From positions 1,798,001 through 1,862,000 of the forward strand of contig NC_092673.1 of NCBI RefSeq assembly GCF_964355755.1: DNA of 64,000 nt, in the 5' to 3' direction. Below the pieces are notes generated by a model. That model was not told the DNA's origin. It saw only the letters and a list, made by a program, of their open reading frames with translations, and searched no databases. Positions 22,200-45,961 of the stretch are shown in pieces. A program made the translations under genes and the position numbers. Origin of the DNA: Antedon mediterranea (lineage: Eukaryota > Animalia > Echinodermata). Position 1 is the stretch's first letter. Each line of letters begins with the position of its first letter.

Positions 22200-25100
22200 T
22201 TAGCTATATGATACTCCTTGGCAGTTTGGGCAGCGTATATGTTTTTCCAACCATCGCTTTATACATTCAAAATGAAAAGCATGGCGGCAAGGCAACATTC
22301 GCACATCTTCCAGCTGTGGTTGAAGTTCATCAAAACAAATGGTGCATCTAAAATAAATAATTAAATGTTAATAATTCAATATCAGTGGATACTACAGTAT
22401 ATACAGAAGATTGAAACTTGACAAATATATTGGTTTGTAAAATAAACAAACTCTTCTATAAAATTTCTTTATTTGATTATCATACATTTTCAGGGACCAT
22501 ATTTGATTATTAGAGACTTTACGAAACACGACGGTTAGGGTAGGACGACGATATCGTGTGTTCGCTAGAGCGTAAAATCATTTACAGTCGGCATAGCCAT
22601 TAGTTACGCACCCTTGCGCGAAGACGACGACTGACAGTATCTCTCTCCCTCCCTTGTCTCGCGGCGTGGGGCCCTACTGAATCGATTGGCTCTGGTGGAA
22701 CAGCATAGACCTAGCCTTCCTAGCTAGGAGCCTCGCATTCAAACGCCACACAGAATGTATTGCTTCTAAAACAGCCATTTTAACCCATTCAAAATGTTAT
22801 TTCGTTAAACAATTAAATTAGTAGTTCAAATATTATTTAGAGTTTTGAAATTTCCACGTTTAAGTGTAATTTGAACGGTATATTTAAGGTTATATGTACA
22901 TTATTTCTAGTTGTTCGCCGTAAACGGGAAAATTGCAACTTTATCGTCCTCAAAAAGTTTTAATTTCACACTAAGCTCCGCCCACTTAATTAAAGCTTAT
23001 GCATAATTATTCATGAGCACCCTCCTGTTGCTTCCCATCCTGTTTCATAAAGTCCCTATTATTACTGAATTACTTATTTATTGAAAAATGGTAATGCTAC
23101 GGGTATCAGTGTCTTAAGGCCAATTTACACAGATGAGTGGTAACTGTGTAAATTCGCCTTTAATGGAGATACAAATAAAATAAGCAAAAAGCTAAAATGA
23201 ATTGAATCCGCCATATAATGCAAAAGTAGAGGCTTGGATATCTTAGATGTCTTTTTTTTCTCTTTTGGTTTGTAATTGAATCTATCAAGTACAAGCTCAA
23301 CACTCTTGAATTTTGGTTTAAAACTAGGTATCTGGAGATTGTATCATGTGCTTAGTATTCAGTACAATTTATAATTTTTAACACTACAGTACCATACATA
23401 AGAAAAATGTTCACGTACGATACTTGGCCAAAAGAGGCATCTTGCCTGTCGGTCAAAGATAGCAACTGATCTATCGCTGCTTCTGTCATGCCTGTGCCTC
23501 GACGTCTTGAAGTCTAAAATACACACAAAATTAACCTTTTTAGTTTTTTTCCATTGTTTATATTACTAGACAAATAATCGTGACAATGATCGTGTAGCAG
23601 AATCATCAGAAAATATATAAATAGAAAGAAAACCATAATAATTACAAATGATGTGGGTGACTCAATAGTATGGTCTTGTAATTGTTGAGCTTCTTCCTCT
23701 TCTGGCCACCTGGAGTCTAAAATGAGAAAACACAGTTTTGATTCAGTATATTTCACTTCTTTTTCTCTCTCTCTTTCATTGAGGTGTATATATATTTCTT
23801 GGTTGGGCCAATTGTTTTTCTTACTGTTGGATAAGAACTTTTAATTGTGTTTGAACGGCCCTAGTCCTGAATTGCATGTGGAGTAGAAATATCTCATTTT
23901 TAAAATGGAAAGATGTTAGAATTACATATATATTTCAGTGAAAAAGAACATACCTAGCATTCTTTGAAATTGGTCTAAAAGTTCAATCAGCTCTAACCGG
24001 ATTTCAATTTCAGATTCATCCAACTGAAGTTGTTCTAAGTAAAAAAAAAACAAAATTCAAAAAAAAGTTTTAATAAAGTTAATTACTTCCGCAAAAAACA
24101 AAATAAGTAAAAATGGTTAAATTCAACCAAAAACATCCAGACTACTTGACTATTGTTTGCTTAAAATTACATTTGATTAAAATAATATTGCACACCTGTG
24201 TTTTCAGCTTCAGCAGCAACAAGATTTTGTACCACAGGCATTGGTTCTAAGGAAAACAAATAAAAAATAACATTACAGTAAGTTTACCTTATAAACATAT
24301 TATTCAAACAATAAGTACATCAGGATGACAACTCAGCCTATGCTGTTTTATCTCTTGTGATGAGTTAGTTACCTCTCGGTAAGATGAAATACAAAACAAG
24401 GGTAAAGTTGAAAGGTTTATTTCATTTTTCACCTCATGAAAATATTTGTACTATCGCACTCAGAGATATCTCATTTTTAGACTGAGATATAAAGAAAACT
24501 ACTAATACTGTACATAACGGTAAAATGGAAAGATGTTAGAATTGCATATATATTTCAGTATAAAAGAACTATGATTGCAACATACCTAGAGTATGTTGCA
24601 TTCCTTCTAAAATAGTAATTAACTCGGAATTTCAATTTTTCTTTTAATTTCAGATTTCTAACTCAAATTGTTCTAAGTTAAAAAACAACATTTAAAGATA
24701 TTGTCACTCAAAAAGTTTTAATAAAGTTAATCACTTCCTTAGAAAACATTATAAAAAAAATGGTTAAATTCAACAAAAAACTCCCAGATTAATTGACTAT
24801 TGTTTTCTTAAAATTACATTTGATTAAAACAATATTGCACACCTATGTATTCAGCCTCAGCAGCAAAAAGATTTTGTACCATAGACCTTGGTTCTAAGGA
24901 AAAAAAAAATTTCATTTTTCACCTCATGAAATTATTTGTACCATCGCACTCATTCATTATTTATATTGTTTGTGGATACTGAGTAACAAATAAATAGCAG
25001 AAAACATAGTTTGATTTTACCCGTTATATTCCTTATGCCTTCAGATATACAAGTAGTATTTTGCCCATCTTTTTCAGGCTTTGTTTCACTCATCTGAGTT

Positions 25101-28100
25101 TGTACTGCAGAAATTGGTTGAATACACTTCTCCATACCTGTTGGCATATGCATATTTTCTGTTTCTTCATCACTTATCGTAGTGGGTGAAGTAGTTGGCT
25201 CTAAGGAAAAATTAAACTATTTAAATATTTTAGCCTTATCGCATTTTTATCTCTTTGGTGCTAGGTTGTTGGAAGTATATTTTAGACATATGCTGTATGT
25301 AAAGGTTATAGCTTGTTAACAGAATTTTACAAAAACATCATCATTCAAATAAACAATGGATGTTTGTACCAATACTACAGTATATATCATATATTATATT
25401 AACATTATTTTAAGTAAGACTCATTTAAAAAACTCAAAATGACATGCAAACATAAATAAATTAACCTTGTTTTCTGTCTATGGTAATCCAAAAAAAAATT
25501 GATGATTCCCTGAAATTGTATAATTTTACTTCTAATTTTAATACTTGAACAATCTCTAAAAATGTATACAAATAGTTTAAGGAATAACAGTGATTATCAC
25601 AGGGTATTTTGATAATGGAATAGTCCAAATAGGTGATAACTAATTATGGTAATTAGCAGATGATTTGAATATTTGTGTAGACTGCGGAGTAGCGCAGAAA
25701 TTCTTTTTGTAGACAACCACGAGAGAGTGATGAGCGTTTAGTTCACCTCACCGTAGAACAATTAAATTAAGATCCGAGCATGAGTCAAAATGATACTGCA
25801 TTGTAAGTAGGATAATTATATTTATAAAAAGTGTTAGTTTAATATGTTATTGGGTGCCGTAAATGAATTGTATATTACGGTAATATTTGTCTGTGTTATA
25901 GTGCCGCTCGAGAGTAGAGAAGAGCTAAGAAGACCTAGACGTCATCATAAATCACCGAAGTAAATGATTACAGAGACGATGAAGTGAAACTATGGTTTTG
26001 CTATATAAGTGTACTGTACTGTCAATGTAAAAATGGAAATGGAGATAATTCACATAATATAAATTGTATCAATAGATATATATATATCTCAGATTACAAT
26101 TAAAAGATTCTGGATATTTATGATAGTGTTGTATATGTATATTATTCTTGTCTTGAATCCACCCCCACAACCCACCAAACCCACTGGCAATGTTGCTGTG
26201 ACAGTGGTACTGTAGAATTCATGATTTTTCTAAATCTTAAAGATGAAATTAAAGAGCTGACAAATCAAATTATTCAGAGATGAATTTGAGCAGTACAAGT
26301 AATTTCTGTACAATCTTCTTGCAACTCTAGGTGTACAGTACTTTACACTGGTGAATGTTTCTCCGGTTTAGCTCTACTGTAAACAACTTTTTTTATGTCC
26401 ATTGACAAGAAAACAGGGTTAAATAAAGGAGACACAAAAACACTTCAGGTTAGCATAACATTTAAAATTAATAATGTTACCTTTCACCATGCATAGTCGA
26501 TTGACATCATGCAAATCAACCTTTTCTGGAGTAGATGTTGACTTTTTTTTTTGTTCAGCATTTCTGTTAAATATTAAAATGAAACACATAAAGACAACCT
26601 TTTCCTGGAAATTGAAAAAGTTGCATTTTAAGTAATCAGTTTTATTGTTGATTGTAAAGCTTGTTTGTTAATCCTGGTTCAATGAACAATTTGAATGTAT
26701 GTTGAATGTTTTTGTGATTCAGTAATGCATGCTCTAATAAAGCTCCGTGGTTGGACCTGCCAAAAGTGTAAAATTACCAAAGACTACATAATGCCCTCAT
26801 GCTTATTTTACTAATATTCCAAAACATTCCATGCAATACAGATTCTTCAAATTTTCATTGAACTTCCTTTTGGAAGTTAAAATTGAAATCCAAGTGAGTT
26901 GATTTTATTATTTTCCAGTATTAGTATATTAGTATAAAAAATACAAATGGTTACCAATACAATATACTTTTAGGAGGAGTAACAGCTATAAAATGCATCA
27001 TTTCACTTACTCTAAATACTGGTTCATTCCATCGTTTTGGGATTCAGTCCTAGAAAAGAAGAATTTAAGTGAGACCTTGAGAGAAAAAATCAGCACATGT
27101 TTTGGGTGTGTTCACAGTTCATCTATGGATAGTTTATTATCAAAATTATAAAATTTAAAAGTATAAATAAATTACCTCAAACCTGGAAACTTGACCGGGT
27201 AGGCACAACCAGTAGTCTTCAATTCCCTGGGTTGGTCTATCCTGAAAGTAGTAATTTCACAACAGAAATAAAGCCTAATTAGAAAATATTTTCAGTAACC
27301 TAAATTAAAAAAAAAACATTTTGGGAGGCAGAATTTATAGTTGGGGTGGTAAATTATTTCTAAATGTGAGTCCAGATAATCTAATATTGTGTTGAAATGA
27401 GTTTTATGGGTAGGTACAGAAATTTATTTTGAGATCGTGTGTGTAAAGATTGAGAGACGAATTGACTACTTTGCAGTCCTACATGTTTTTGGTAATCAGC
27501 TTACATTTCAGGTGTTGCAATGTTTGTTTCACTCGGTTCAATGGATGCTGCTTCACTAGATTTTGCAGAATCTGCCAAACTATTTAAAACAAAATCAACA
27601 TTATAAATTGCTAATTTACCAACATGTAAATGTTATACAAATACATTTAACAAGATAATTATTTATAATAAGAAAAACTTGCATTTTGTTATTGTCGGTT
27701 GATGCATAACTGAACACTCCGGTGTCTGTAGAAACCACTCTGTAGCAAGAATAATAATAATGAAACAAAATTAATCAATTTGATTTACATAATTTTAAAA
27801 TGATGTCCAATGGTGGTACAGTAAAAATATTTCACTTTAAAGATGTATTGCACCCCAAAAAAAATACTTTAAATACGCCATTTTGCAGATTTAATAAAGT
27901 TACTCAGTTTTGTAGAGGGGAAGGGGGACAAGATATCTTTAACGTACAGTATATAAAATATACATTTTCACAAATGGTGGCTCAATGGGCCAAATTGCAT
28001 GTAATATCAATATCAAATACCACCCTGCTTTTCGAGAATTCAAATTCACAGTCCCTTTGGAGACTCATTTTCATGAGTAAACATTTTATAATTGAATATA

Positions 28101-29154
28101 ATAGGCCTGGATGTTACACATACATACAACATCAGCATTCCAAACTGGTCTAATATATTATTCATATACTATAATTTATAAGAATGTTCTTAACTTGTGT
28201 TTTCCATATTAGGTTATTTTTTAATATCTTACAGTTCTTCAGTCAATACACCACCACTGGCCTCATCATGGGAATGAGGAACCGGAAAACGTTCACTGAA
28301 GGAAAATAAAATATAAGTTTAGTTTTCAATTACAGTAAAAGCACACAAAAGATACATTGTTACGGTGCTATTAGAATTTGATGATTTATTCAAAAAGTTT
28401 AAGGACAACCATTTGTTTCAAATAAATTGTTCAATTCAACAGAATTGCAACAATAGAGACTTTATATGTTTTAATTACCTTTACATTACAACAATTAAAA
28501 TGAAAAACTTAGGTCTATACATGCAATCTCTTTGCATACTATCGGCCATTTTTAAAATTCAAAATGACGTCATAAACTTTGCTCTGTCTATCGAACCGAA
28601 TACGGTAAATCTTCTAATAGTACCCCACACTCTAATAGTAACCTCCCTCCTAATAGTAACCCACCCTAAAAAACAATCAAAGAATAACAACCCATGCTAA
28701 TATTTTGTATAAATTACCATTTTTTTTCATTCATTACTGTCTCCTTTTGTTTACCATCCTGTTGCATAGAGTCCCTAATGACAAAAGAACACCATGTTAC
28801 CATTATGGGAGAAATAAATTTACAATGTTATGAAAATAATTTACTGAAGCATTTTGAAAACAAACCTATTTAATACATTTTTAAATAAATAATGAACAAA
28901 CTTACAATCCTCTATCAGCCATTGAATCCTGACTGAAGACTCCAGAATCCACATTTCTGGAGATATGGGCATCTATCTGATCATCATCATCAGAAACCAC
29001 AACTGGTTTTTTCTCCTCACTGTAAAAAGAAAAATTCAGTAGTGCTATTTGTATATTAGTGCTTATAGTGTCTCTAATATTGAGCGTGTGACAGAAAACA
29101 TTTAATACCTTACCTGCTTGTGTTTATTGTTGACATCTTTATTTTATCAGTCAT
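22200..29154 (-). CDS. Uncharacterised RING-H2 E3 ligase with a long low-complexity micro-exon N-terminus containing DSGVFS/DTGVFS motifs (paralogue A, ~425 aa)
   Basis: Phase-consistent exons: 29114-29154, 28906-29019, 28718-28774, 28233-28295, 27683-27739 (GC donor), 27505-27579, 27176-27241, 27011-27049, 26481-26563, 25021-25200, 24843-24893, 24196-24246, 23954-24034, 23646-23716, 23419-23513, 22200-22347. The last exon encodes CTICFDELQPQLEDVRMLPCRHAFHFECIKRWLEKHIRCPNC (C3H2C3). Confidence 0.8.
22512..23057. mobile_element. Non-autonomous DNA transposon (Harbinger-like TIRs)
   Basis: tagagactttacgaaacacgacgg vs ccatcctgtttcataaagtcccta are imperfect inverted repeats. Confidence 0.65.
23895..24905. 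repeat. Intragenic tandem duplication of a two-exon block in paralogue A
   Basis: 23900-24255 is similar to 24520-24905 (taaaatggaaagatgttagaatt...ggttctaagga). Confidence 0.85.
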
Positions 29155-30865
29155 ACAGTAACTTAGCTGAAAGAATAGAAATACAGTACTATTGAGTCTA
29201 ATTGAGGTACTTCAATCCCTAGTTGTTAAAAAAACAGAGATCAATTTTTGAAAGCAGAATATGTTACTGTAGAAGATAGTTACTCTACAAGCATGGTTAA
29301 TGATCATTGTTGGTGCTATTTAACATTTTTAGCCATGAACCCTGCAAAAGGACAAGACAAATGTTGTGTTGGTTTACAGTGGGACATTCAAAAAGCATAA
29401 CAACTGGAATCTATGAATATAATAATATTGTACACAGTGGTAAAACTGCTTCAAATCAAAAGGTATCAGTTTACACTAATTGTGTCAACAGTCTGTTCTT
29501 TCCTCCTCCCACCCCAAGGCCCATGGCAAGAGGACATTTTTATTTTTGGTGAAATTGTGTTATATTATAAACTAGTGAGGTCAGTACATTTTCTATTGAC
29601 ACAAACATTGTTTTGCCTTTGTACAGTATGCTGTTTATTGTGTGTTGTTTGCATGGAAGTTACTATTTATTGACTATGGCAAAGGCCACAATGTTCAAAC
29701 ACTAACAGACCATGCCTATTCATCATTTCCAAGAAAATTGACAATATTAAAAAAATAAGGAATCTAAATTTAATAGATTATTGTGTGTTTTTGTGAGCGA
29801 TATTTTGACCTTGAAATTGACCCTGTGGAACATGCCTTATTTTTTAAGGAATGTACTGTACACCATCCAAGTTTCATCCAACACAAGAGTACAGTACACA
29901 AAAAACACACAATAATACTATATTTAGATTCCTTAAGATCTTCCTTTTACAAAAATACCTTGGTTTTCAAATTCGGACCTGTATTTCCAGAGACTCTAGC
30001 TCTTTGACAAATTTCGGAGAAAAAAAACCCGAAAAAATTGAAATTGAGATATTTTGAAAACCGCTAGTAGTCTGAAGTTAAAATTTGAAAGTTTTATTTT
30101 ATTAGCCACAAATTACCCATGCACCAAATGTCATGAAAATTGAAGGACGTAGTAGGGTTTAAAATTGCATTTGTTTGGGGGTGAACTGAGATTGAATGAC
30201 CCTTCAAGTGTAATTATTGTATTTTCATCAATAAAAAAATAATTCTTTTAAAATTAAAATGTATCATTTTATTGATGAAAATAGATTTAAACACTCTAAA
30301 TATTCTGTACACTTACTTACTTATTTACACTTTATACTGGTAAGACTTGGTTATAATTGATAAGGCTTGGTATAACAGTAATAATGAAATATATATTTTG
30401 TAAGGGTATAGACCTAGGCCTACAGACTGTTAATTCCTCAGACTGATGGAATGGACCGAATGGAACAATCCATTTAGTGGTCTGAGTTTTCTAATAGGCT
30501 AGGCCTAGAGTAGTATAGGCCTAAGATTGAAACTAGAAAAGAGATCTTGAAGTCGAGATCTTATGGAATTTTCCAGACATCATATAACTGTCTAGGAATC
30601 CACTGTCTAGGCCTAGCATAAATATATGAATCATAACATGTTTTTATTAAATCAGTGAGTTTTACCTTGCAAATCTCGTTCAGGTTTTACACACAAAGTG
30701 CACAAAAACAAAAACAGACAGCATGCATGTGACATGTGAATGCTCAATTTCAAGGGCGCCTCGCACGTCGAGTAAGAAAACGTAAAGTCATTCTATAGGA
30801 AATAGGCTATAACAGTAAAACATATGAATGTATAATTAACATATAAAATGTAATGTTATCTTTAT

Positions 30866-33800
30866 CTCTCTCTCTCTCGAAGTGCCATATCATGAGACTT
30901 TGGCGATCATGTTGTGCCACAATTCTCTGTCTATTGCCATATTCAGCAACTCCACTTCTTTGGTATTCTCGCCTCTATTCCGAATCCATTCAGCTATGCT
31001 GGCCAACCAAGTGACTCTTTTCCTCCCCCTGCTCCTTCTTCCTTCTATTTTCCCCGTTAATGCCAAGTTCTCCAGACCTCCCTTCCTCAACACATGTCCC
31101 ATGAATCTCATCTGTCTAATCCTAATACCCTTCAGTAGTTTCCTGCATACTCCAGCTCTTATCAATACATCTTCATTACTAACTCTATCTGTCCATGGAA
31201 TTCTCATCATTCTCCTTAGAAACCACATCTCACAGCTTTCCAATCTTTTTCTGAGGTCAGTTGTGATTGACCAGGCTTCACTTCCATACATCAGCACAGG
31301 ATAGATGTAGCAGTTTAATACACGCAACCTGGTTTCCATACTCATCGCACAGTTCTTCAAGATATTCTCCATTTCTCCAAATGCGGATTTCGCAAGGACT
31401 ATCCTTCTCTTTATCTCCGTTACACACCTGGCATCATCTGTTATTTTGCTCCCAAGATAGTTAAAAGAGGACACCTGCTGAATTAACTGGTCTCCTGCTT
31501 GAAGGTTACACGTTGGACTCTCCTTTTTGACACTACTAAACACTCTGTCTTACTACAATTTATAGACAGACCCATCTTTTCGCTCTCTACTACAACCACA
31601 TCCAGCAACCTTTGGAGATCTTCAGCTGACTCTGCCAGTAGAACTGTGTCATCTGCATATCTGATGTTTGTAATATTTCTACCACAAATTCTCAAACCCT
31701 TCTCATTATCTAGCTCCCTCAAGATCAACTCGCTATAGTAGTTAAACAAGTCCGGTGACATTACACAGCCCTGTCTCACTCCTCTTCCAATCCTTGTGTA
31801 GTCACTGCACTCCCCATCTACCCTCATGCATGCAGTCTGTTTCCAGTACAAATTTTGCAACAATCTAAGATCCTTTCCATGTAGGTCAAGCTTGCTAAGT
31901 TCTTGAAATAGCTGCTCATGCCTTACTTTGTCAAATGCCTTGGTGTAGTCTATGAAACACATGTATACATCTTTCTGCATCTCCACTGCCCTTTCAGTTA
32001 TCATTCTTATCACAAAGATGGCATTCCTGGTGCCTGAATCCTTTACAAAACCAAACTGCTCACTCCCAATCTCTGGTTTTAATCTGCTTCTTGCTCTCAT
32101 AAGTAGTATCCTCAGAATGATCTTGGTGACATGACTCATGAGGCTGATTGTACGATGTTTTTCACATTCTACAGCACCTGGTTTCTTCGGAAAAGGGCAA
32201 TAAAAATGGACTTACTCAAGTCCTCAGGGAAGCTTCCATCCTCGTATATCTTATTGATCACTTCAGTTAATTTTCCACTCCATACTCTTCTAATGCCTCA
32301 ATCATCTCGATGACTACACCATCCGGTCCTGCCGCCTTATTCTTCCTCAACCTCTTGATTGCTGTTCGTACTTCTGCTTTCAAGATCTTTGGTCTTTCTT
32401 CTGAGTCAGGAAAGCTTGGCATTGCTTGTCTAACATCAAAAAACAGCTCCCCGATATACTCTGTCCATCTTTTCAAAATATCAGTCTTTTCAACAAGCAT
32501 TGTTCCATCTTTTGCCTTAATGCATCCAGAGTTTGAGCAGCCAGACTTCCTTCCAGTGATCTCATTAAGTCTCTGATAAATCTTGTGGTTGTTGTTCTCT
32601 AGTCCACTCTCAATCTCCTCACACTGTGTGTTAAGCCACTTTTCTTTTGCCTCCCTGCACTTTTGCTTAATTTCTCTATCTAGATCTTTATATTCTTTAC
32701 TTGATCTACTACTAATCTTCTGTCTATCCCTCATCATTGATAGTATCTCTTCCGACACCCATTTGTTCTTCCTTCTTCTCTCTTTCTTAGGTAAGGATTC
32801 TTTGGCTGTCTCAACAAGGATGTCTCTCATTGCATCCCACGTAATCTCTTCACCTTCATCTACAAGGATGTCAAACTTATTCCTCACTTGAATGGAATAT
32901 TCCAAACGGATCTCCGGACTGTTTAGCTGCTCAAAGTCTAATTTCTGTACATTTTTGGCTTTCTTCACCTTTTTTAACTTTGATTGAAGTGTGCAAACCA
33001 CTGGAATGTGGTCACTTCCACAATCTGCCCCTGGATATGTTTTTGCATGAGTCACTGCCCTTTTCCACCTACTGTTTACTGCAATGTAGTCAATCTGATT
33101 CCTCGTCACATCACCAGGGCTCTTCCATGTGTATATTCGTCTGGGAGGCTCTTTAAACCATGTATTTGTTATGGTCATATCCTTAGCTTTACACCAGTTC
33201 ACCCATCTGTCGCCACGCGCATTTCTTTCACCCATCCCATGCTCTCCAACTGTGTTTCCATCTTGTTCCTGGCCAACCTTTGCATTCAGATCACCCATGA
33301 TGAAATTTATCTCATCTGATTTGCATTGGGATTTGGCCTGGTCTAAGGTCGCATAAAAGTTATCTATCTCTTCATCTGTGCAGTCAGCTGTAGGTGCATA
33401 AACCACTATGATAGAGATATTGAAGGGTTGTCCCTGCAGTTTGACCAGCATAACTCTTTCACTCACAGCCCAATAGCCCAGCATACATTTAGCCATATCA
33501 CCATCCAAAAGCAACCCTACACCTTTTTCATGTTTGTCTCCTCCAGCGTAAATCATCTTGTAATCATCAATCATAAATTCACCATTATTTGTCCAATGAG
33601 TTTCATTTATCCCTAATATATTGATATTGAGTCTTATCATTTCCTGCTTAACATTTTCAAGTTTGCCATCTTGATACAAGGTCCTCACATTCCACGTTCC
33701 TAGTCTGATTGTACTTCTATTGCGGACAGTAGCTTGATGACGGTCGAGCTCCACCTGTCGCACATGAGACACCCTACCGGGCGAGGAGCCTCCTTCATAC

Positions 33801-34237
33801 GATGGATGTACCCCCTTTACGCCGTTAGCTTTCATTCTTGAATTGTGACACTTCATAATTGTTCTTGGAAAAATGATAGTGAAGTGGTTTCCCGTTGCCT
33901 TCTTCACTGCAGTCTATCAGCCATAAATGGGATCACCATCTTGCCTGACAATGTGTACTGAGGTCTGCCGTTGTCCTAGAAATGGATCTTCCGCCGAGAC
34001 ACCCATACTGCATCACTGCTGCCTAATGCAGGGCATGGCTAGGCCTATTTAGAGGCGGCCTAAACTCGCCTCTACTGCAGAACGTATTTGGGGATATGCC
34101 GGTTTTATGACCCTGTTGGTGCCACCCAACAGCGCCCGACACCCTGCTGTTACTGCAGTCCTCCTTTAGTCGCCTCTTACGACACGCGGAGCTTTCGTGG
34201 GGGGTATTCTTTTATCAGAACCCTCCCCCAGGCCATT
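30866..34237 (-). mobile_element. Near full-length RTE-clade non-LTR retrotransposon (APE endonuclease + RT)
   Basis: APE motifs GTWNVRTL, MGDLNAKVG, NQIDYI, SDH; RT motifs FIDYTKAFD, GVRQGC, YADD; RTE C-terminus GKIEGRRSRGR. (GA)n tail, candidate TSD tctttat (30859-30865 / 34238-34244), three frameshifts. Confidence 0.95.
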
Positions 34238-34490: not shown

Positions 34491-34864
34491 AATAAGTTCT
34501 CATGTAAGTAGGCCTAAGTTGTATTATGCCTTTAGATTTTTTTCAATAATGATTTTTAAATTAATAATCAGTTTATTTTTCTAAAAATGTTGAGGTAATA
34601 AAAGAGAATAGTAGGCATTTGTAATCAATCAATATTTATTATAATCAATAATATTATATAAATAGTCAATCGTCAGTGGGAACTGAAACTTTATTTCGCA
34701 AACTAATGCATAGCAAAAAAAGGTACACAAATATATATATGAGTAGTATAAAATGTAATATAAAATGTCAGAACAGCTGACATATAAATTTAGAAGTCAA
34801 AAGCAATTTATCCAACACAACAATCAAATTATTAGACATAGTAGGCCTAATAGGTAACATAAAA

Positions 34865-35500: not shown

Positions 35501-36295
35501 CCTACGTCTTTTCTTAATTTTTTAATACAAATAGGGGACCTATATTGTTGTTTATCGATGATGTAATCAGATGTAATCAGCATCACGCTATAGGCCTACT
35601 ATCTTTGATGATCAGCAAATCATGAACGAAGGCCAATCGGTGGTACGTACCACCTGTACCCACTCATGCTGTGCTCATGATCTCCACCATTACAGTCAAA
35701 AATTAAACGACAATCCGATAGACCATTAACCGATAATTATCCGGGATTTGGATGAGGTTCTCAAATACTATTATTAGATATTTTGATGTACTAACTAATG
35801 AGAAATGTATTGTTCGATCAATTCTTTATTTTAATTTATTTACTGAATAGCCTATTTATAGGGAGTTGTTAATTAGATTCTAATTAACAATTCCTTGATA
35901 ATGATATAACTTTTTTTTTTAAATAATAGAAAACATTTGTAAATGTAATGTGGCTCTAAAATTGAAATCCTAGATTTTATAAATGTTGTTAAGAAATATC
36001 TGTCAGCTATATGACAGGATTAATATTTCCCACAACGTTATACTGAAATTCCTTGACAGTCCAAGACACTATAGAGACTACGCTAATTTTACTAAATATA
36101 TTTTTAAGCATCCATCACGCATTTGAATTTTTGATTTGTTCAAGGACTAGAATAGACAAGTTACGTTTTTTCAATATCTATTTATCTTCCTCACTTTTTT
36201 ATTACAAAAATAAAAACATACTAATTAAGAAATTGTTGTAGTTCATTTTTTGTTAAAACGAGATTCTAATCTTCCAATGTTGTACAATTAACATT
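35500..36295. repeat. Diverged copy of 46395-46975, last part inverted
   Basis: Shared blocks such as aaattaaacgacaatccgata...gatgaggttctcaaatactattattagatattttgatgtactaactaatgaga; 36110-36292 is the reverse complement of 46785-46973. Confidence 0.85.
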
Positions 36296-36815
36296 ATTTG
36301 TATTAAATTAAATTATTTGTATATATTTTTAGATGTTCTAGATGCTTTTTGTTGAATATGAGTGATGTTTGTACCAGTTGATAAAATAATAACCTACAAA
36401 CAGAACATGTTTAATGTTGTGTTATTTAGTATATCATGCTTTTTTCATATCATATTTTTTTCAAATATATACCATATATTACCGAGTATAATCCCAATAT
36501 AGTATAATTCCACTGCGTCAAATTAATCATATTTTATCAATTAAATTCACGGAAAAATAATATCTTTTAACGTCTGTTAATTAACGTCTATTATACTTTC
36601 TAATACTATAGAGGGCCAAGTCTATTTTTATTTTGTATTTCGTTACAATTCAACAACGCTGAAAAGCCTAGGGTGCGACGATATGATGATATACTAAATA
36701 ACACAAAATTAAACATGTTCTGTTTGTAGGTTATTATTTTATCAACTGGTACAAAAATTACTCATCCAAAAATATATAGGCCTACAAATAATTTAATTTA
36801 ATAGTATACAAATAA
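36293..36815. repeat. ~140-bp inverted repeat pair (MITE-like or inversion scar)
   Basis: gtaccagttgataaaataataacctacaaacagaacatgtttaa is mirrored at ~36710-36752. Confidence 0.75.
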
Positions 36816-37414
36816 TTGTATTATACCGTATTATTCGAATAAACGCCCTGGTTTGAATAACTTCCCCTTAGAAAATTATTTTTAAATAAACATTTTTTCT
36901 CAATATACATAATTTTTAATTTACAAATACTATATACAATTTTAATTACAAACATACATAGTTTTATTCAAATAAAAAATTAACATTTAAAATAACCAAT
37001 TACCAGTATTCAGCTAAGGATGTTTTCAGTTACAATGGTTAATATCTTTACACCATTTCAGTAATTTTTATTGATTATTACAGTACTGCATTTGGACAAA
37101 TCATTAAAAAAATACTGTATCTAATAATTATGGTGCATTTTAGTTGCTTGTGTGTATTATTGCTCAAGCTTGGTCCTCTACTTGGTAGTGTTATTGTGGG
37201 ATTGGTCCTGGTTAAAATTGTATGATTTGTTTACGGTACTGATAACTATTTATTAAGTACATTGTAATGGTATTTCTTATTTCATATCCCTAGGGAGTCA
37301 TCACCCCTAACAGTTTATTCGGCAAGGTGTTTATTTTTCGGGGTGTAATATGGCAACATGAATAATCAAATACATATCATCTAGATATAATAATATTAAT
37401 AACTGGTACTGGTA

Positions 37415-37590
37415 TAGTGCATTATGCTGAAAGCCTCAATGCGCTTTACATAGACAGAAAAATTTAGAAAATTAAAAAGGTGGGTTTTGAGGAGAGATTT
37501 GAAGACCTTGGTGGAAGTTGCCTGACGGATTTCAAAAGGCAACGCATTCCATAGAGAAACAGATGCGGAAGAAAAAGATACAACACAATT
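37415..37590 (-). mobile_element. L2/CR1-group LINE 3' end
   Basis: SFSSASVSLWNALPFEIRQATSTKVFKSLLKTHLF followed by a gcgcattgag tail hairpin. Confidence 0.75.
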
Positions 37591-37879
37591 AGTATCGAGA
37601 AGTGATAAAATACAGTAAAAAACTTATCTCACACTAAAAACCAGACCAGTTTTGAGAGTTATCAATACAATTTGTGATTTTATGTTCCTAATTAATTTCT
37701 TATTTTACGTAATACTAAATATGTTTAATTTGTGACATTACAATGCATTACATATGTAACATGGATTTTGTGTTTAACGTTATTATACAAGGTAATCATT
37801 TAACAAGATTGTAATTAAACTACACCTTTTTAATAGCTATACAGGTGTGCAAATTAAAAAACTAAGTACCATTTTAAGT

Positions 37880-38200
37880 ACCGTTGCCTTTTGTAAAGTG
37901 CCTAACAAAAATTAATTTTCTCTAAAGCATTACAACCACAAGGCTTAAACTAGGTAGAAATTACATCATATCATATGTTATGCGAAAGAGATGGGTTTTT
38001 AGCAATTGTTTGAAGATGTCAATATAATTGGCATCCTTGATTGATTGTGGAAGAGTATTCCATAAGGATGGAACTGTGCAAGAGAATGACCAGTCAGCAA
38101 ATGTATGTCTGCATGTTCTTGGTTGGATGGAATAGTCGAGGCGAAGGTATAGATGAATGACGAAGATTTCTGCGAGTGTTCTGGAATGAGACGAGCGATG
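37880..38200 (-). mobile_element. L2/CR1-group LINE 3' end
   Basis: PRTCRHTFADWSFSCTVPSLWNTLPQSIKDANYIDIFKQLLKTHLF. Confidence 0.75.
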
Positions 38201-38224
38201 AAAGATATTTCTTTCCTTAGGATG

Positions 38225-41200
38225 TCACCCTTTGCGCAGTGGAAAAAATTCCTGAAGAAAAAAATAATAAAATATGGTACTGTGTTAACATGTTATATAA
38301 AGGTAGTACACAAGCAGTATCATCAATTGACCATAACATTTTATATTAAAATCGAAAATGTTTCAATTAAACAAAGTGAATTACAAAAATCTGTTTACAA
38401 ATAATTAAGTCATTGTAGAACAATAATCAGTGATGATAATTTTGTTGATTTGATAATAAAAAATTATTATGATATCAAGAATAAATGGTGCGTGATTTTT
38501 ACCATTTCCATTCCAAATAATCTTGGCACCGGCAAAATGATCTGAAAAAAAATATTGTATTGCACATAATTAGGCAACATATTTATAATAATAATTTATT
38601 ATATTTATTATAATGAGCTGCACATTATTCTTGAGAGAATTACTACTTATTGTACAACCTGTAATATATTTATTATACGATTCACATCTTATTCCTAAGC
38701 AGGTTAGCTTATGAATGGCAGCACTCAAGTTTTGTTTTTGGTATAGGAGTTAAAGGTGGCGCTAGATAAATGTCTAAAATTATCATCATTTACTGGTGTT
38801 TTTTTAGGCTAATCCTACTAACCTCCTGATCATGTTCTTGTTCCTGTTCCTGTTGAGGAAAGAGCAAATCTTCAAAGGGCAGGGGACCTAAGAAAAATAA
38901 ATTGAGTTTAATGAAAACAATGGTGCAGTACTCGCTGCTTACTTGGGACTTAATCAAGCATGTCTATACAAATTATTCAGTATTATTCATCTTTTTAATA
39001 AATTGTTGGATGCAAATGAATTACACATTATTTTTTTTTTATTTTACAAATAATTAAGTCATTGTAGGACAATAATCAGTGATGATAATTTTGTTGATTT
39101 CATAATAAATAATGCATGATTTTTACCAGGTAGCTGCTCATCCTCAACTTGTAGACCTATTCCAATCAACAATCTAGGCACCGGGATAATAACCTGAAAA
39201 AAAAAAGCATTGCACATAATTAGACATATTCGTAATCTGTGAGACATAGTTTTACACAATTACTACTTATTGTACAAACTCAAAATATATTTACATAAGA
39301 TTTATATTTTATTCCTAAGCAGGCTAGCTTATGAATGGCAACACTCAAGTTTTGTTTCGGGGACAGGAGTTATAGGTGGCGCTAGACGGTAAATGTCTAA
39401 ATATAATATAACAGTAAACACAATATATCGCTATGTAAAAATATAGATACAATTTTTTTTTTATATAATGACCTCATTCCGTCCATTGTCACAAGCAAGT
39501 ATAGGCATTTCAAGAGGTGGCAATGCCAAATCATCTAACACCTCTTGTCGCTCTTTGGTCTTTTTTCCCCAGACACATTCTTTGGCATTGTCTTCCTTGT
39601 CATCTGTGCAAGGCTTTCCAAAACCATTAAGTTCTAGAGAAAAACAAACATTTACAAACAAATTATTATAATATAATTAAAATCGTTAAAATATTTTCTA
39701 ATCTTATCAGTACAAGATGATAGTTCGTATTGATATAATTGAAATATCATTTTACATACCTTCCATTAATCGGTATAGCCTATCCGTTTTTTCCATCAAA
39801 TTGATTTCCTTGCTGCCAGTCTCCTGGACAGGGAGGGGAAGTGCATCTCTTCTTAATTCTTCAAGGGAATAAACTTTAAAACAAAATGTATTTAGTTTCT
39901 ATTTATTTGTTTCAACAAGAAAATGAGGACAAAAGCAGAACAACCACTATATATATAAATATGAAAACTAATAGAAATGTAGCAACTTTTATATCACTGA
40001 TGACATAGACACCATTTACCCATTTAAAACCACCTCTCGAGTAGTTCCAGGATCGGCTTTTACGTTTGGGCTAGCTTATGCAGTGAACTATGACCAAGGG
40101 CTTGAGAATCATAAGTGTAAATGGGGTCATACCTGTAGATTGAATTTTTATCTTTTTCTAGCCTGATAATAATAGACAAATATTCACAATACACTAACGT
40201 GTTATTACATTATTGTAAAGTTGTATATATTAAATACATTTTCAGTATATCACTGGGCGGTTTAGAAATTGTTTTGTGCCCGTCGTGTTTATATATATAT
40301 TTCAATATATAACTATATATAAAAATGTATACTGTATATTAATTAACATTTCAGAATCCCATATACTAAATTAATTTAACATGCAGCTCCAAATTTCTGT
40401 GCAAATTCAGTAAAGGATGATTCTTGAGAAACATTTCTTACCCTTTGATACACAGTCTACATATAATGCATTCATGCCTTCAACAAGTCTTTTTATTTCT
40501 GCTTTAATATCTAGTTCTGGTGTTGTGCAAGGCGTGGGAAACTTCAAATCTAACAAAATGTAAAACAACATTGAATTAATTAAAGTAAGTAGTTAAAAAT
40601 GTTAATATTATATGTATTCAATTCAATTCAATTCAAGAAACATTTATTGACCATATTTTAGCATAACATTAACAATGGTTAGCATATAATATATATAGTC
40701 AAGAGACTACAAAAGGCCCGATGGGCCTGTCACTGTAGTCTCTCTTTACATTATACAAGTATACATACCAATACAAATAATAATAATGCAACACTTAGGC
40801 TAATCTTAATTAGCCGTTATGTACATTATATCAGTAAAAAAAAAAAGAAAAAAAATACAGTATCTTAATTAATTAGGTAACCATCTGAGATATACTATAA
40901 TAAAAGATATTCTTTAATGGACCTTTTTAAACTTTTACCATGCTTATGCACCATGCTTGGAATTTTATTACAGAAATAATTCCAAAGTTTAGGTCCATTT
41001 ATATGAATAAAGTGTTGGCCGCAAGTTAGTCTTGAGAAAGGTACATTCATTGCATATTTTTGTCTAAGATTGTGATAATTGTTGTCATGCTTACTAAAAA
41101 TGTTCAGAACATATTGTGGTAACACACCACGCCTAACATTATCCATGAAGCCTATAACATTTAGTTTATGGATGTCGTGAATATTAAGTATTTTTAGTTT

Positions 41201-44200
41201 TTTAAACAGAGGTTCAGACGACACTCTCATGTTTGAATGAGTTATTATTCTGGCAGCTCTTTTCTGGAGCTTCCATAATGTTTCCAGTGTACTATTGTAT
41301 GTGCTTCCCCATACAAGATTGCCATATTGGAAATGGGGTAATATTAAGGTGTTGTATAAGTTGGTTAAAATATGAGATGGAAAAAAATCTCTAATGTACA
41401 CAATGCACATCTACAAATCAAGTTTTTTACTAATAAACACATACTACCGTGTCAACGTCATACACTATTAAATATATTATCCCATTTATGAAGTGAATAA
41501 TTATTACATGAAATTAAAATAGCCTATTGTATTCAACAACAAAAAAATTTCAGGGGACAATATCCAATTATTAATTGTAGAATTAATTATAAAATACTAC
41601 CTCCTGCTTTATGGCAAATGTTGTTTAAATCGTTGATATCGCATGGTTTTATCGTAGCAGTCGATTGCTTAGGCGCATCAGACATTCTGTAAATTGTTTA
41701 AAGTAATTTCAATTATTTGTTGACAATATAGACTTTATGGAATTAATAAAAATTCCAAACATACATAAAAAAGTATAATTTCATATCATCAAAATGTATA
41801 CATTAGTTCAAACATAAGTAACACTTACTGAAACGATGTAATTTTTAAATGATAAATAAATATTGTTGTTTATTAGTACATTTATTTTTATATTATTTAA
41901 CTTACCTTAGGTACTCGTTCATGCCATCATGAGTTTCACTGGATTTTTAAAAAAAACAGAGAGGTAAAAAATAAATTTGAAAATTTTCATCTACTCAGAT
42001 ATTTTACGAGGGCGGTCCATCCAGCCGAAGCTGATCATTAGGGACCCTCACAAAAATACATCATGATGAGACATAAACATGTAACAATAACAATTAAATT
42101 AAAATAAATAACTCCTGCTAAGAATTGAATACAAACACATTTGTTGTAGTGTATTATTCTTTAGTATATCATTAAAGAAACCAGGTGATTGCTAAGTTTA
42201 AAAGATGAAAAAGTGCCTTACCTACTCCTCAACTGAGGTGACATACGCCTGTATACATCACCATTACAATCTAATGACAATACCATCCTGTAAAAAATAA
42301 CAATTTGCAATTAATTTTAATGCTAAATAAACTTTATATTTAATATAAAAATTATGTTACAAACTAGTTATCAGAAAGTCTATATTATTTTGTAAACCAG
42401 TGCTGATTTTTTCCATTTTTTGACTATCCAATTATTTATTTTCACAATGGACTTACTCTGTTGTTGGAGGTTGCAAGGTTGCAGGAGAACTAGAGAATGT
42501 AACATTTCCAGAATCTACAGCACTGAAAAACAAGTAGGAGTGAGTATGACAACAAATGGAAATTAAGAAACAGTGTGTCCAAAAAGATGACTCCTCTTCT
42601 TAAGCTCTGTGTACACTATCAAACTTTATGTGACAAACAAAATGTGACGTGCCCATATATGGACATGATGATGTCACTACCATATTTGGAAATATCACTA
42701 CCATATTTGGGCACATCACACTTTTTTTTGTCAAACTAGTTTGATGGTGTAGACAGAGCTTTAGAGTCATCTAATACCTACCTATATAATATTAAAGCTT
42801 GGTTCCCACTTGGATGCAGCACAGGACATAAGCTCAACGCAAGTAAGTTGACCAATCACAAGCGACAGTTCGGATGATCCATCCATCGCGTTGTGTTGTC
42901 ATTGGTTAAATTGCTTGTGATGCACTTATGTCCTTGCGTTGCGTCCACGGGGACACATTTAAGTGTCCCCTTAATAGGGATTTGCCATAGTGTTAAATCA
43001 TGCCCCTTGTTTGTTTTATGAGAAAGTGTCAGAATTATCCACCTGAATCCATTGAAGATTTGTTCAATCTTTTAACTCTGTAATTGCTAGAGTATTTTTC
43101 AGTATCAAGCATGATTACATTTTTCTCTTGTGCAGTGTCTTCATTTCTCCAGAACTTACTTTTTAACATCTTCTTCATTAGACAAGATGGATCCTCCTGA
43201 GGTGTGGCTGCCAAGTCCGGAATCTTTCAACCTGGAACACAAAATATTTATTTTGATTACCAGAAATAAAATTGTATCTTAATACAAATTGATATGACTA
43301 AATTAAAGGATCATAATTATAAGTTTGTTAATGTACATGTTTGAAATGTTGTGAATACTCTGATGTCATGCCTTTCTGTATTAATTCATTTGCATAATGG
43401 TTTGAAGTCGACCCATGTTCACATAATCCCTTTATCTTCTTCTGATCGAAACAACATTGTAGGCTTATGAGTGGTAGGTTGTATTATAACTTGATCCAAA
43501 CGACAATGATACATAGTAGGCTAAATGACCAAGGTACCAAAAAATATATCTTACTGTTCTGATTTCCTGACCTTCCTTCTAACCACTGGTCCACTATCCC
43601 CTCTACCAACAGCTGGATCAGCATCTCTGAAATATTTAACAATTATATTATAAAAAAAATCTTTGATTTTGCTTAGACAATAATTTTTATAAATATTTAC
43701 TTTCACCATGTACTTACTTTGTTGTGGGAGAATGCAAGGTTGCAGAATCAGGAGAACTAGAGACAGTGATTGACAAGCCTCCTGAAGTGTGGCTGCCAAG
43801 TCCAGAATCTTTCAACCTGGAACACAAAATACTGATTACCAGAAATAAAATTGAATGTTAATAAAAAATTGGTATGACTACATTAAAGGATCATAATTAT
43901 AGGTTAGTTAGTGTACAAATCTGAAAGTTTGTGAATACTCTGATGTCATTTCTTTTTGTATTGAATGATTTAATTCTGTTAAGCATATAGTGGTCTAAAG
44001 TCAACCATGTTCACATAATCCCTCTATCGTCTCCTGCAGTAATAATTGATCCAAACAACAATGATACATACAGTCGGCTAAATGATCAAGGTAACACATT
44101 AAAATATCTATTCTTACTGTTCCGAGGGCACATTATTTTTAACCACTGAAGTTTCTTCCACTATATCAGTAGGTGAATTCATTTCTCTGAAATAGATCAG

Positions 44201-45961
44201 TATATTTAAATAATTAGCAAATATTTTACATGACAAAAAAAGACACAAAAAACAATGTTGTGACATAAAATGTGAAAGAGGAATGTTAAAGCTTTTTTAA
44301 AGCAAATATTTGTAACAGAAATCAAGACGAAAAAACATGAATTTCCCTTAATATGGTCAAATACAAAATTTGGCAAAATTCTGCCATAAAAATTAGGAAG
44401 ACTTTTTTTTCAGTAGTTAGGTGCAATAACATGTCTGCTGACTCCCTAGAAGGTGAAAAAAGATGGTGGATATACAGTGGATAATTTTTGCTATAGCATG
44501 AAAATAAAAATCTTAAATTGAATATAAATACCAGAAATGTAAAATTCAAGTTATATTACATATATTTAGTCATCTGATAACATTTTTTACCACACCGTTT
44601 ATTTTTCATAGCTTTTTAAAATGCCTCTCTATTTACAAAATTTGTGTACAAAAGAATAGAGATTTTACTGTGTAATTTGAACTATCCCCCCACTGATAAG
44701 AAAGTGCTTATTGTCAACAAGCTAGTGTAACACAAATAAAATCCCAAAAGTTATGAAACATAGGCCCTGTTTCTGCTGCCAAGAAAATACCGCATTTTAT
44801 ACAGTATTTTTTGAATACCGTATATATACCATATTTTGTTGGCAGCAGAAACTGCGCTCATAAAAAAAATACCGTATTTTGTATACCGTATTTTCCCCAC
44901 AAAATTTGTGGATAAAATACGGTATTTACAATTTATACCGTATTTTTTGTACCCTTTTCTGCTGCCAATAAAAAATACAATATTTTTTTTAACATGCGAC
45001 ATGAGGTAAACATCGTGTTTTATTTTCTGTCGCTGTCAGCTGTTTTACACACGTGTATAGATATATTCGGCGAAAATGTGGAGCGAAGACGTCACGGTAT
45101 TTACTATATAAATCTGTGTGGGGAAGAAGGGGGTGGGGAAGCTAAAATGTCCGGCCAACTAAAAGTTAATAGAAGGGACAACCACATTTATAAAGACATT
45201 TCTAAAAAATTAAAGCAGGAGTACTGAATAGACTTGCCTCCAAAGCAAGTAAACTCAAAGCTGAAGAGCCTGTGAAAGCAGTACAACATTGCAAAAGACA
45301 AACTCGGGGAGGAAATGAATTACTTGTCCCCATTACGATGTTTTCTGTGCTCTTGCAACATCTCTATCACTAGGGCTAGGCTGTTGAAAGTGAGACATAA
45401 AACTTCCTTTATTGCGACTTTTAATTAATATCGACCAAATAAATGAATGGCAATTTGGGTAAAAAGGATGAAAATTTAACATGACCACCCAAGAAGTATT
45501 GTTAGCAGAAACGGGGTACTAAAAAATACTGTATTTTTATACCGTATTTTGAGCAGTTTCAGCAGAAACAGGCCCATATAGGGGAAACTATAGATCGATA
45601 ATTATTGGAATATATGATCAATAGAAATTTTTTGCCTGCACCCGGCCTTTAAATCATTGAAAGATCAATTTAGAGTATTAAATTAATCATTTTGAAGTTT
45701 ATTTGAATGGCAGACAAAGCATTGGTTATTATTGAATTGAAAATATTAATTAATGATCATGTTTGTATAAATTCTCGGGTGATTTAGGAAATATTCAAAA
45801 TACAAAGTCTTCTTCGAATTAAATAAAGAAAACATCCATATTCTTAAAAACTTCTGAATCTGTGAAATGGCAATTAAATTTGGACTTAAATTAAAATGGA
45901 ATCTAAAAACTTACATATCATTAGTATCAGACAGAGTCTGAGGGACATCATTGTTATCCAT
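38225..45961 (-). CDS. Uncharacterised micro-exon protein with two DSGLGS and one DSGNVT motifs; RING-less paralogue B
   Basis: Phase-consistent exons: 45915-45961, 44118-44186, 43718-43816, 43555-43626, 43160-43231, 42457-42522, 42222-42287, 41906-41938, 41601-41686, 40442-40549, 39760-39873, 39473-39633, 39127-39193, 38823-38887, 38503-38541, 38225-38251. Alternative stops at 39382 and 38762. ETHDGMNEYLR and DINDLNNIC match paralogue A's ESQNDGMNQYLE and DLHDVNRLC. Confidence 0.7.
38400..39400. repeat. ~650-bp-offset tandem duplication at the 3' end of paralogue B
   Basis: 38400-38780 is similar to 39050-39400 (aattaagtcattgtag...ggtggcgctaga...aaatgtctaaa). Confidence 0.85.
40612..41412 (-). 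mobile_element. 5'-truncated CR1/Crack-like LINE
   Basis: LYNTLILPHFQYGNLVWG...KLQKRAARII...SEPLFKKLKIL...GPKLWN; (TTGAA)n tail at ~40615-40635. Confidence 0.85.
42601..42763. mobile_element. AGCTCTGTCTACAC-family MITE
   Basis: Full TIRs taagctctgtgtacactatcaaac / gtttgatggtgtagacagagcttta. Confidence 0.85.
43195..44190. repeat. ~585-bp tandem duplication copying the DSGLGS exon and its upstream exon
   Basis: 43195-43630 is similar to 43780-44190, including gtgtggctgccaagtcc(g/a)gaatctttcaacctggaacacaaaata. Confidence 0.88.
44762..45576 (+). mobile_element. Non-autonomous PIF/Harbinger element with a decayed Myb/SANT (trihelix) domain
   Basis: TIRs ggccctgtttctgctg / cagcagaaacaggccc; internal INLCGEE...QLKVNRRDNHIYKDISKKL...QVNSKLKSL*KQY. 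Confidence 0.7.

What the first reader, a model, noticed from the sequence alone, without database searches (positions are those of the whole stretch)
22200..45961. Tandem pair of degron-array micro-exon genes: one RING-H2 ligase, one RING-less
Seen: two minus-strand genes that the ORF track mostly misses, each built from small symmetric phase-2 exons with homologous central exons (DGMNQYLE / DGMNEYLR; DLHDVNRLC / DINDLNNIC). Both carry repeated DSGxxS-type motifs (A: DSGVFS, DTGVFS; B: DSGLGS twice, DSGNVT). Only A ends in a C3H2C3 RING-H2. Known: DSGxxS is the beta-TrCP phosphodegron, and DSGLGS is the IkB-beta motif. Inference: A is a kinase-switched unstable E3 ligase, and B is a RING-less decoy or titrator of SCF-beta-TrCP. 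This could be a lineage-specific regulatory module near immune genes. I recognise no known family with this architecture.
Basis: partly seen in the sequence, partly recalled or inferred. Interest (0 to 1): 0.82.

Follow-up and report, generated by a model that had tools for sequence, protein, structure and literature searches.

The report
Feather-star ligase and its RING-less twin
Two neighbouring, distantly related feather-star genes, one ending in a ubiquitin-ligase RING finger and one spliced into RNA without it, carry repeated motifs that likely mark the proteins for signal-triggered destruction; this is a lineage-specific version of a known design, and the proposed decoy role is untested and poorly supported.

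Summary
Observation confirmed. Two 16-exon minus-strand genes of the feather star Antedon mediterranea, already annotated as uncharacterized RefSeq proteins: A (29154-22200, 423 aa, C-terminal RING-H2) and B (45961-38225, 396 aa, no RING). They are paralogues (32% over 108 aa; exons 2-8 symmetric phase 2). One RNA run bridges 9 of the 10 B introns laid and splices into B's own stop exon, so B is a separate RING-less transcript. A's splicing and all DSG exons were not seen in RNA. DSG-type motifs exceed shuffles (P about 0.0005 per gene), and duplicated copies differ mostly at silent sites (B: 3 silent, 0 replacement; P 0.013-0.06, post hoc). But the 'array' is exon duplication, only one independent canonical motif exists per gene, and no orthologue was found. 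Lysines lie 9-10 residues before B's motifs and not A's, so B looks more like a degradable substrate than a decoy. A's RING has a weak Gln linchpin. Precedents: TRIM9/TRIM67, ZNRF3, UHRF1, rotavirus NSP1, ARKL1/ARKL2. The scan had not noted this on other DNA. New variant of a known kind; interest 0.33.

The parts
22200..29154 (-). Gene A, 16 coding exons, 423 aa (XP_071948663.1); intron phases 2 x8, 1 x5, 0, 2
   Evidence: splicing not seen in RNA here
22200..22347 (-). A exon 16: C3H2C3 RING-H2 (residues 376-417), Gln418 at the linchpin position, stop
   Evidence: Pfam zf-RING_2 48.1 bits
23419..23513 (-). A exon 15: pre-RING helix region, included in the local alignments to RNF38 and RLIM (query 350-419)
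   Evidence: with the RING; no match on its own; helix 354-364 in a low-confidence model
28906..29019 (-). A exon 2: canonical DSGVFS (D38) and a SIM-like PVVVSDDDD (19-27)
27683..27739 (-). A exon 5: DTGVFS (D97), likely an old copy of the 3' part of exon 2 (motif 14 codons before the donor in both); GC donor
27505..27579 (-). A exon 6: DSAKSS (D114), positional counterpart of B exon 6
   Evidence: (weak, z 2.4)
26481..27049 (-). A exons 8-9: central module shared with B
   Evidence: (z 6.9 and 8.2)
23901..24907 (-). Internal duplication in A (exons 11 and 12 with flanks, 77% identical); copies differ by 6 replacement and 1 silent change
38225..45961 (-). Gene B, 16 coding exons, 396 aa (XP_071947477.1), no Pfam family; intron phases 2 x8, 1, 1, 1, 0, 1, 0, 0
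   Evidence: introns 7-15 bridged in RNA run X1
43718..43816 (-). B exon 3: DSGLGS (D42), lysines at -10 and -1
43160..43231 (-). B exon 5: DSGLGS (D99), duplicate of exon 3; lysines at -9, -6, -1
42457..42522 (-). B exon 6: DSGNVT (D123), third copy of exon 3 with a 27-nt in-frame gap that removes LGS
41601..41938 (-). B exons 8-9: central module shared with A
   Evidence: spliced in X1
38394..39401 (-). Internal duplication in B (exons 13 and 15 with flanks, 74% identical)
36760..38251 (-). B last exon: 8 codons, stop at 38225, then 3' untranslated region of at least 1.3 kb (end near 36760 inferred); its start resembles the 3' end of a LINE
   Evidence: joint 38250-38502 and cover down to 36900; poly(A)-signal hexamer at 36802; like a second fragment at 37399-37623; LINE identity recalled, not confirmed
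30890..33913 (-). LINE retrotransposon between the genes (endonuclease and reverse transcriptase, in three frames)

Best explanation
A and B are old tandem paralogues of a feather star, only A ends in a RING-H2 finger, and their DSG motifs likely act as beta-TrCP phosphodegrons that would make the proteins (B above all) short-lived substrates rather than decoys. Shown: two separate genes with shared exon phases and a shared central module; B is spliced and stops at its own last exon; the motif copies arose by duplication of symmetric exons. Inferred: both proteins are mostly disordered; a kinase (unknown) phosphorylates DSGLGS or DSGVFS, SCF-beta-TrCP binds and ubiquitylates the lysines upstream, and the protein is degraded; A is a weak or E2-selective ligase of the RNF38/RLIM/Arkadia RING type; B keeps whatever the shared central module binds but cannot ubiquitylate it, having lost (or never gained) the two RING-side exons.
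For: Gene models and phases; paralogy E 2e-9, 32% over 108 aa; exons 8 and 9 match at z 6.9 and 8.2 with more silent than replacement change (7 codons: 3 silent, 1 replacement; 24 codons: pS 0.84, pN 0.44). RNA run X1: 9 of 10 laid B introns bridged, 8 with GT-AG ends and the modelled length. Motifs above 20,000 composition shuffles: DSGxxS P 0.009 in A and 0.008 in B with the duplicate removed; D[ST]Gxx[ST] P 0.0005 and 0.00035; 1 DSGxxS in 51,123 residues of 150 other RING proteins. B exons 3 and 5: 13 codons with 3 silent and 0 replacement changes against 9-12% intron divergence (Fisher P 0.013; binomial 0.026-0.063). A exons 2 and 5: 3 silent, 1 replacement in 6 codons. Lysines at -10 and -9 in B fit the 9-14 spacing stated in PMC4324316. 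Models disordered: 368 of 423 and 372 of 396 residues under pLDDT 50 (single sequence).
Against: No orthologue, so no cross-species conservation. The codon windows are short and chosen after seeing the motif. With the broad degron consensus the excess vanishes in A (P 0.31; B 0.010). B's third copy lost LGS and A's second copy has Thr for Ser. A's motifs have no lysine within 20 residues upstream. No DSG exon and no A junction was seen in RNA. Low pLDDT from a single sequence does not prove disorder (the RING itself was modelled poorly). The lysine rule is loose: NSP1 and Vpu have such a lysine and are not turned over by beta-TrCP (PMC4324316 passages).
Confidence: 0.45

Rival explanations
1. 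The motifs are incidental: fast-evolving, Ser/Asp-rich disordered genes that grow by duplicating symmetric exons copied one or two chance DSG motifs; A is an orphan RING-H2 and B its truncated paralogue with no link to beta-TrCP.
For: Exons without motifs are duplicated too (A11/A12, B2/B4, B13/B15). One independent canonical motif per gene at P about 0.01 each, found by a reader scanning for many motif types. Third B copy eroded. No orthologue.
Against: Both paralogues carry the canonical motif; the motif-bearing duplicates show silent-biased change while A11/A12 show 6 replacement to 1 silent; control RING proteins have 1 motif in 51,123 residues.
Confidence: 0.3
2. One reading: B is a stable decoy that titrates SCF-beta-TrCP and so protects IkB, beta-catenin or A itself.
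For: Two exact IkB-beta-type cores; B is expressed; TRIM9 and TRIM67 work this way, and RING-deleted TRIM67 still suppresses NF-kB (PMC8901487 passages); a CARD gene lies about 6 kb beyond B's start.
Against: Lysines upstream of both B motifs, whereas the viral decoys are described as lacking them (PMC6431142); DSGLG is also the TAZ core, so it is not IkB-specific; direct neighbours are LYAR and CFAP206.
Confidence: 0.12
3. Roles reversed: A is the antagonist, binding beta-TrCP through a lysine-poor DSGVFS and either holding it or ubiquitylating it with its RING, as rotavirus NSP1 does; B is a degradable competitor.
For: No lysine within 20 residues upstream of A's motifs; a degron-like motif plus RING suffices to target beta-TrCP in NSP1 (PMC4324316 passages).
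Against: Gln linchpin; one canonical motif; A only weakly covered in X1; no direct test.
Confidence: 0.06
4. A is a SUMO-targeted ligase of the Arkadia/RNF4 kind and B an ARKL1-like RING-less partner.
For: SIM-like PVVVSDDDD at 19-27 (pattern recalled); best solved RING matches are RNF165 and Arkadia; ARKL1 and ARKL2 are adjacent RING-less and RING genes (PMC6695498 passage).
Against: One such motif arises in 6.3% of shuffles; B has none; Arkadia uses several; RING scores for RNF165, Arkadia, RNF38, AMFR, RNF126 and RLIM lie within 2 bits; YEELL motif absent.
Confidence: 0.05
5. B is a pseudogene, or the 5' half of one long gene that splices onto A's RING exons.
For: B's last exon looks recruited from a repeat; unspliced intron-10 pieces exist in X1; minor read-through cannot be excluded by contigs (6 of 23 loose ends shown).
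Against: Open 396-codon frame over 16 exons; X1 splices exon 15 to exon 16 at depth 38.5 and covers at least 1.3 kb beyond the stop; A has its own start exon and repeats B's N-terminal exons.
Confidence: 0.02

Closest known systems
C-terminal RING-H2 ligases RNF165/Ark2C, RNF111/Arkadia, RNF38, RLIM (CTL family of PMC5764321 covers RNF38, 44, 111, 165)
   Same: Long N-terminal region, RING-H2 at the C-terminus; best PDB matches 35-37 bits, with the pre-RING stretch aligned to RNF38 and RLIM.
   Different: No YEELL motif (best window 6 of 13 positions), one extra residue in the first loop, Gln rather than Arg linchpin; no similarity outside the RING region.
TRIM9 and TRIM67 (PMC8901487, passages)
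   Same: Cellular RING proteins with a degron that binds beta-TrCP; RING-deleted TRIM67 still inhibits NF-kB.
   Different: N-terminal RBCC architecture, conserved families, binding shown; here a C-terminal RING-H2, an orphan pair, binding untested.
ZNRF3 (PMC6160385, search listing only) and UHRF1 (table in PMC10317156)
   Same: RING ligases that are themselves beta-TrCP substrates.
   Different: Other domain architectures; no RING-less tandem paralogue described in what I read.
Rotavirus NSP1, vaccinia A49, HIV Vpu (PMC4324316, PMC6431142, passages)
   Same: Degron-like motif used to engage beta-TrCP; NSP1 pairs it with a RING.
   Different: Viral, single motif; the A49 paper describes the viral mimics as lacking upstream lysines, which B has.
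ARKL1/C18orf25 and ARKL2/RNF165 (PMC6695498, passage)
   Same: Adjacent genes, one RING-less and one with a RING-H2 of the same general type.
   Different: Those correspond to the N- and C-terminal halves of Arkadia; A and B share their N-terminal half and differ in the C-terminal half.

Membership tests
RING-H2 (C3H2C3) domain | Eight zinc ligands C-C-C-H-H-C-C-C at RING spacing; Pfam zf-RING_2 above cut-off | tested here: met
   A: 48.1 bits against cut-off 27.3; spacing 2-15-1-2-2-10-2. B: no Pfam family.
Active RING E3 ligase | E2-contact residues (Ile after the first Cys pair start, Trp in the helix, Pro before the last Cys; recalled) | tested here: met
   I378, W407, P415 are present and align with RNF165 and Arkadia.
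Active RING E3 ligase | Cationic linchpin after the last Cys | tested here: not met
   Gln418; Arg in 185 and Gln in 11 of 262 RING-H2 matches among fetched proteins. RNF38 R454Q binds E2-Ub 11.6-fold worse and shows minimal activity (PMC12326332); natural non-Arg ligases such as XIAP still work.
Active RING E3 ligase | Ubiquitin transfer in vitro | not testable with these tools
   needs an assay
CTL family (RNF38/44/111/165) | YEELL motif upstream of the RING | tested here: not met
   No match to the consensus of PMC5764321; best window 6 of 13, the same as in RING-less B.
CTL family (RNF38/44/111/165) | Identical ligand spacing | tested here: not met
   One extra residue in loop 1 against RNF165 and Arkadia.
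SUMO-targeted ligases (Arkadia, RNF4) | Several SUMO-interaction motifs | tested here: inconclusive
   One good SIM-like motif and one weak one in A, none in B; 6.3% of shuffles give the like (pattern recalled).
beta-TrCP substrates | DSGxx(x)S motif | tested here: met
   A 1, B 2 canonical; DSGNVT is of the Bora type, DSAKSS of the NRF2 type; DTG is not in the listed triplets.
beta-TrCP substrates | Lysine 9-14 residues upstream | tested here: inconclusive
   Met for both DSGLGS of B (-10, -9); not met for any motif of A or for DSGNVT.
beta-TrCP substrates | Motif conserved in orthologues | not testable with these tools
   No orthologue found; no crinoid genome held. Only duplicates could be compared.
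beta-TrCP substrates | Phosphorylation-dependent binding and turnover | not testable with these tools
   needs co-IP and half-life assays
beta-TrCP decoys (A49, Vpu, LMP1 type) | No usable lysine upstream, so the protein stays bound | tested here: not met
   B has lysines at -10/-1 and -9/-6/-1; the rule has exceptions (PMC4324316). A would meet it.

The most novel reading that the evidence does not exclude
A feather star evolved its own counterpart of viral beta-TrCP mimicry: by duplicating symmetric exons both paralogues independently multiplied a degron motif, A using a lysine-poor motif plus RING to hold or destroy beta-TrCP and B acting as a RING-less, degradable competitor that times the effect, so that exon copy number tunes NF-kB or Wnt output.
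Probability: 0.08. Interest if true: 0.7.

Novelty: new variant of a known kind. Interest (0 to 1): 0.33.

Why it matters
If the motifs are functional, the pair shows how a signalling switch can be built quickly in orphan genes: symmetric exons carrying a degron are duplicated and eroded like cassettes, and a RING-less paralogue keeps the switch without the ligase. Each element has precedent, so the gain is a natural test case rather than a new mechanism. If the motifs are incidental, it is an ordinary fast-evolving RING gene with a truncated neighbour.

Tried and rejected
Own genome not held, so no paralogue census or tree with crinoid RNF genes. Run search listed no run on record as RNA; X1 proved to be spliced RNA only when laid. 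Laying four runs on 14000-33900 gave a joint table filled by repeats (15 of 514 rows shown, none at A's exons); the X1 pieces shown in A are unspliced, depth 3.5 and 5.3: no verdict on A's splicing. X1 differs from the window at 27 places in 1,049 bases of B's 3' region but at one listed, silent, place in coding exons; rejected as evidence of selection because intron-10 pieces are as similar (1 difference in two pieces of 363 and 248 bases). Homologue searches: RING exon, 1 candidate, itself; B exon 12, 5 candidates, itself only; A+B profile, 6,443 candidates of 217-741 aa, only A, B and one RING protein at E 0.095; HMMER over 1.84 billion representatives with the RING exon gave generic RINGs of at most 60% identity, none of the other 149 listed matching A or B outside the RING region at E 0.5; 10 looked up, two named as protists. 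ESM Atlas: generic RING clusters for A, nothing usable for B. PDB: nothing meaningful for B. Metagenome and viral contigs: nothing. Single-sequence folds too poor for fold search. No RING remnant for B at protein or DNA level. A candidate extra A exon near 25470-25560, seen by eye, is absent from the database model and was dropped. Similar DNA upstream of both genes (35518-36295 and 46401-47705, 84-93%, partly inverted) is too young and scrambled to be the duplication boundary. The B2/B4 codon count used an ungapped register over a gapped region and is not relied on. No complex prediction was sent: phosphorylated motifs cannot be modelled and A-B binding is not claimed. Literature: ten searches; none listed a paper on these genes; none of the 12 listed papers held the word crinoid.
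Full report
Observation. Searching with single exons returned two database proteins of the feather star Antedon mediterranea, both 'uncharacterized', each alone in its 90% cluster: A, XP_071948663.1, 423 aa and B, XP_071947477.1, 396 aa. Each maps letter for letter to 16 coding exons, A at 29154-22200 and B at 45961-38225, with canonical splice sites apart from one GC donor. The first eight introns of both are phase 2 and exons 2-8 are symmetric; later introns are mostly phase 1 or 0. Median exon length is 68 nt, so these are small exons, not micro-exons.

Expression. Run X1, laid on 36900-42590 (B exons 6-16), shows nine joints that bridge introns 7-15: 9 of the 10 introns in the stretch. Eight have GT-AG ends and the modelled length; one of these has only 29 letters on its short side; the joint at intron 12 reads 3 bases longer than the model, in frame, at a place where intron and exon starts look alike. 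Exon 15 is joined to exon 16, which holds the stop, and separate contigs cover the region from there to beyond 36900; a poly(A)-signal hexamer lies at 36802. B is therefore a spliced, RING-less transcript in this one sample. Exon 6 had no cover and exons 1-5 were outside the stretch, so no DSG exon was seen in RNA. For A the joint table was filled by repeats and only unspliced low-depth pieces were shown; A rests on its open frame, its splice sites and the database model.

Relationship. A and B align at 32% over 108 residues (E 2e-9). Among 496 exon pairs, the only strong cross-gene matches are exon 8 with 8 and 9 with 9 (z 6.9, 8.2), where silent change exceeds replacement change. The C-terminal halves do not align convincingly. 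No RING remnant exists for B. B's last exon begins in sequence that resembles a second fragment nearby and, from recall, the 3' end of a LINE; I could not confirm that identity. Whether B lost the RING or A gained it is open. No orthologue of either gene was found; these word-based searches miss distant relatives.

The motifs. Against 20,000 shuffles, a canonical DSGxxS has P 0.009 in A and 0.008 in B once its duplicate is removed; two D[ST]Gxx[ST] have P 0.0005 and 0.00035; 150 other RING proteins hold one DSGxxS in 51,123 residues; under the broad consensus A shows no excess (P 0.31) and B a small one (0.010). The 'array' is exon duplication: B exons 2-3 and 4-5 are 74% identical with their introns, exon 6 is a third copy of exon 3 with a 27-nt gap that removes LGS, and A's two motifs sit 14 codons before the donor in exons 2 and 5. 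Exons without motifs are duplicated as well (A11/12, B13/15). The 13 codons around DSGLGS differ by 3 silent and no replacement changes, against 9-12% divergence in the adjoining intron (Fisher P 0.013, binomial 0.026-0.063); A's pair differs by 3 silent and 1 replacement change in 6 codons, whereas A11/A12 differ by 6 replacement and 1 silent. This is modest, post hoc evidence that the motifs are kept by selection.

Mechanism. A review table confirms DSGLGS as the IkB-beta core, shows DSGLG in TAZ and DSGxxT in Bora, and does not list DTG among first triplets (PMC10317156, passages). Cellular substrates are ubiquitylated 9-14 residues upstream of the motif (PMC4324316, passages), and viral decoys are described as lacking upstream lysines (PMC6431142, passages), although NSP1 and Vpu have one and escape turnover. 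B has lysines at -10 and -9; A has none nearer than -20. So B fits a degradable substrate better than a decoy, and A does not fit 'unstable' especially well. A's RING keeps all zinc ligands and matches RNF165, Arkadia, RNF38, AMFR, RNF126 and RLIM within 2 bits, but has Gln at the linchpin; that substitution weakened RNF38 binding 11.6-fold and left minimal activity (PMC12326332, passages and section 8). My best reading (0.45): functional degrons that time the turnover of two disordered paralogues, with A a weak or E2-selective ligase. Rivals: incidental motifs (0.30), B a decoy (0.12), A the antagonist (0.06), SUMO-targeted ligase (0.05), one gene or pseudogene (0.02). Kinase, binding, turnover and ligase activity are all inferred.

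Comparison. A fails the CTL family tests (no YEELL, extra loop residue; PMC5764321, passages), so it is not filed under RNF38/44/111/165 though it is built like them. RING ligases with beta-TrCP degrons are known as substrates (ZNRF3, PMC6160385, listing only; UHRF1, table) and as competitors (TRIM9, TRIM67; PMC8901487, passages). An adjacent RING-less and RING pair exists in ARKL1/ARKL2 (PMC6695498, passage), though as halves of Arkadia. No supplements were read; the CTL alignments in supplements could refine the spacing test. The neighbours are LYAR and CFAP206, then TMEM128, a CARD gene, a B-box/NHL gene and a sideroflexin, which gives no real immune link. Earlier notes of the scan hold nothing like A or B; one note on this genome hinted that spliced RNA was available.

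Verdict. Real genes, correctly read; the architecture is new as an orphan pair, but each element has precedent and the decoy model has evidence against it. New variant of a known kind, interest 0.33.

Noticed in passing
window 52140-55200 (-): Gene with an N-terminal CARD (Pfam CARD_2 35.8 bits), a death-like stretch (below cut-off), a long low-complexity exon and a short hydrophobic C-terminal tail: MAVS-like by recall.
   Followed up: partly
window 7600-8700 (+) and 47120-49600 (-): TMEM128 and LYAR lie about 40 kb apart with CFAP206, A and B between them; from recall the two are neighbours in human, so A and B may be insertions in an old linkage block.
   Followed up: no
window 30890-33913 (-): Near full-length LINE (endonuclease, reverse transcriptase) broken into three frames, covered by long contigs in all four runs.
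   Followed up: partly
window 59257-61236 (+): Single 659-codon frame with two B-boxes, filamin-like and NHL repeats and no RING in the frame: a RING-less TRIM-like gene.
   Followed up: no
window 9800-12900: Tandem arrays: a unit of about 185 bases repeated many times, then a 33-base unit (seen in the ORF list).
   Followed up: no
window 825-6900 (+): Exons with EGF-like, Ig-like and fibronectin-like stretches and a transmembrane segment: Tie-like receptor by eye.
   Followed up: no
window 39845-40471: Unspliced pieces of B intron 10 in X1 at depth 9-15, as deep as the spliced form (9.7): possible intron retention.
   Followed up: no
window 34885-35600 (+): Fragments of what looks like a DNA-transposon gene between B and A; no Pfam family.
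   Followed up: no
window 24680-24560 (-): Decayed second copy of A exon 13 (acceptor kept, early stop) inside the A11/A12 duplication.
   Followed up: partly
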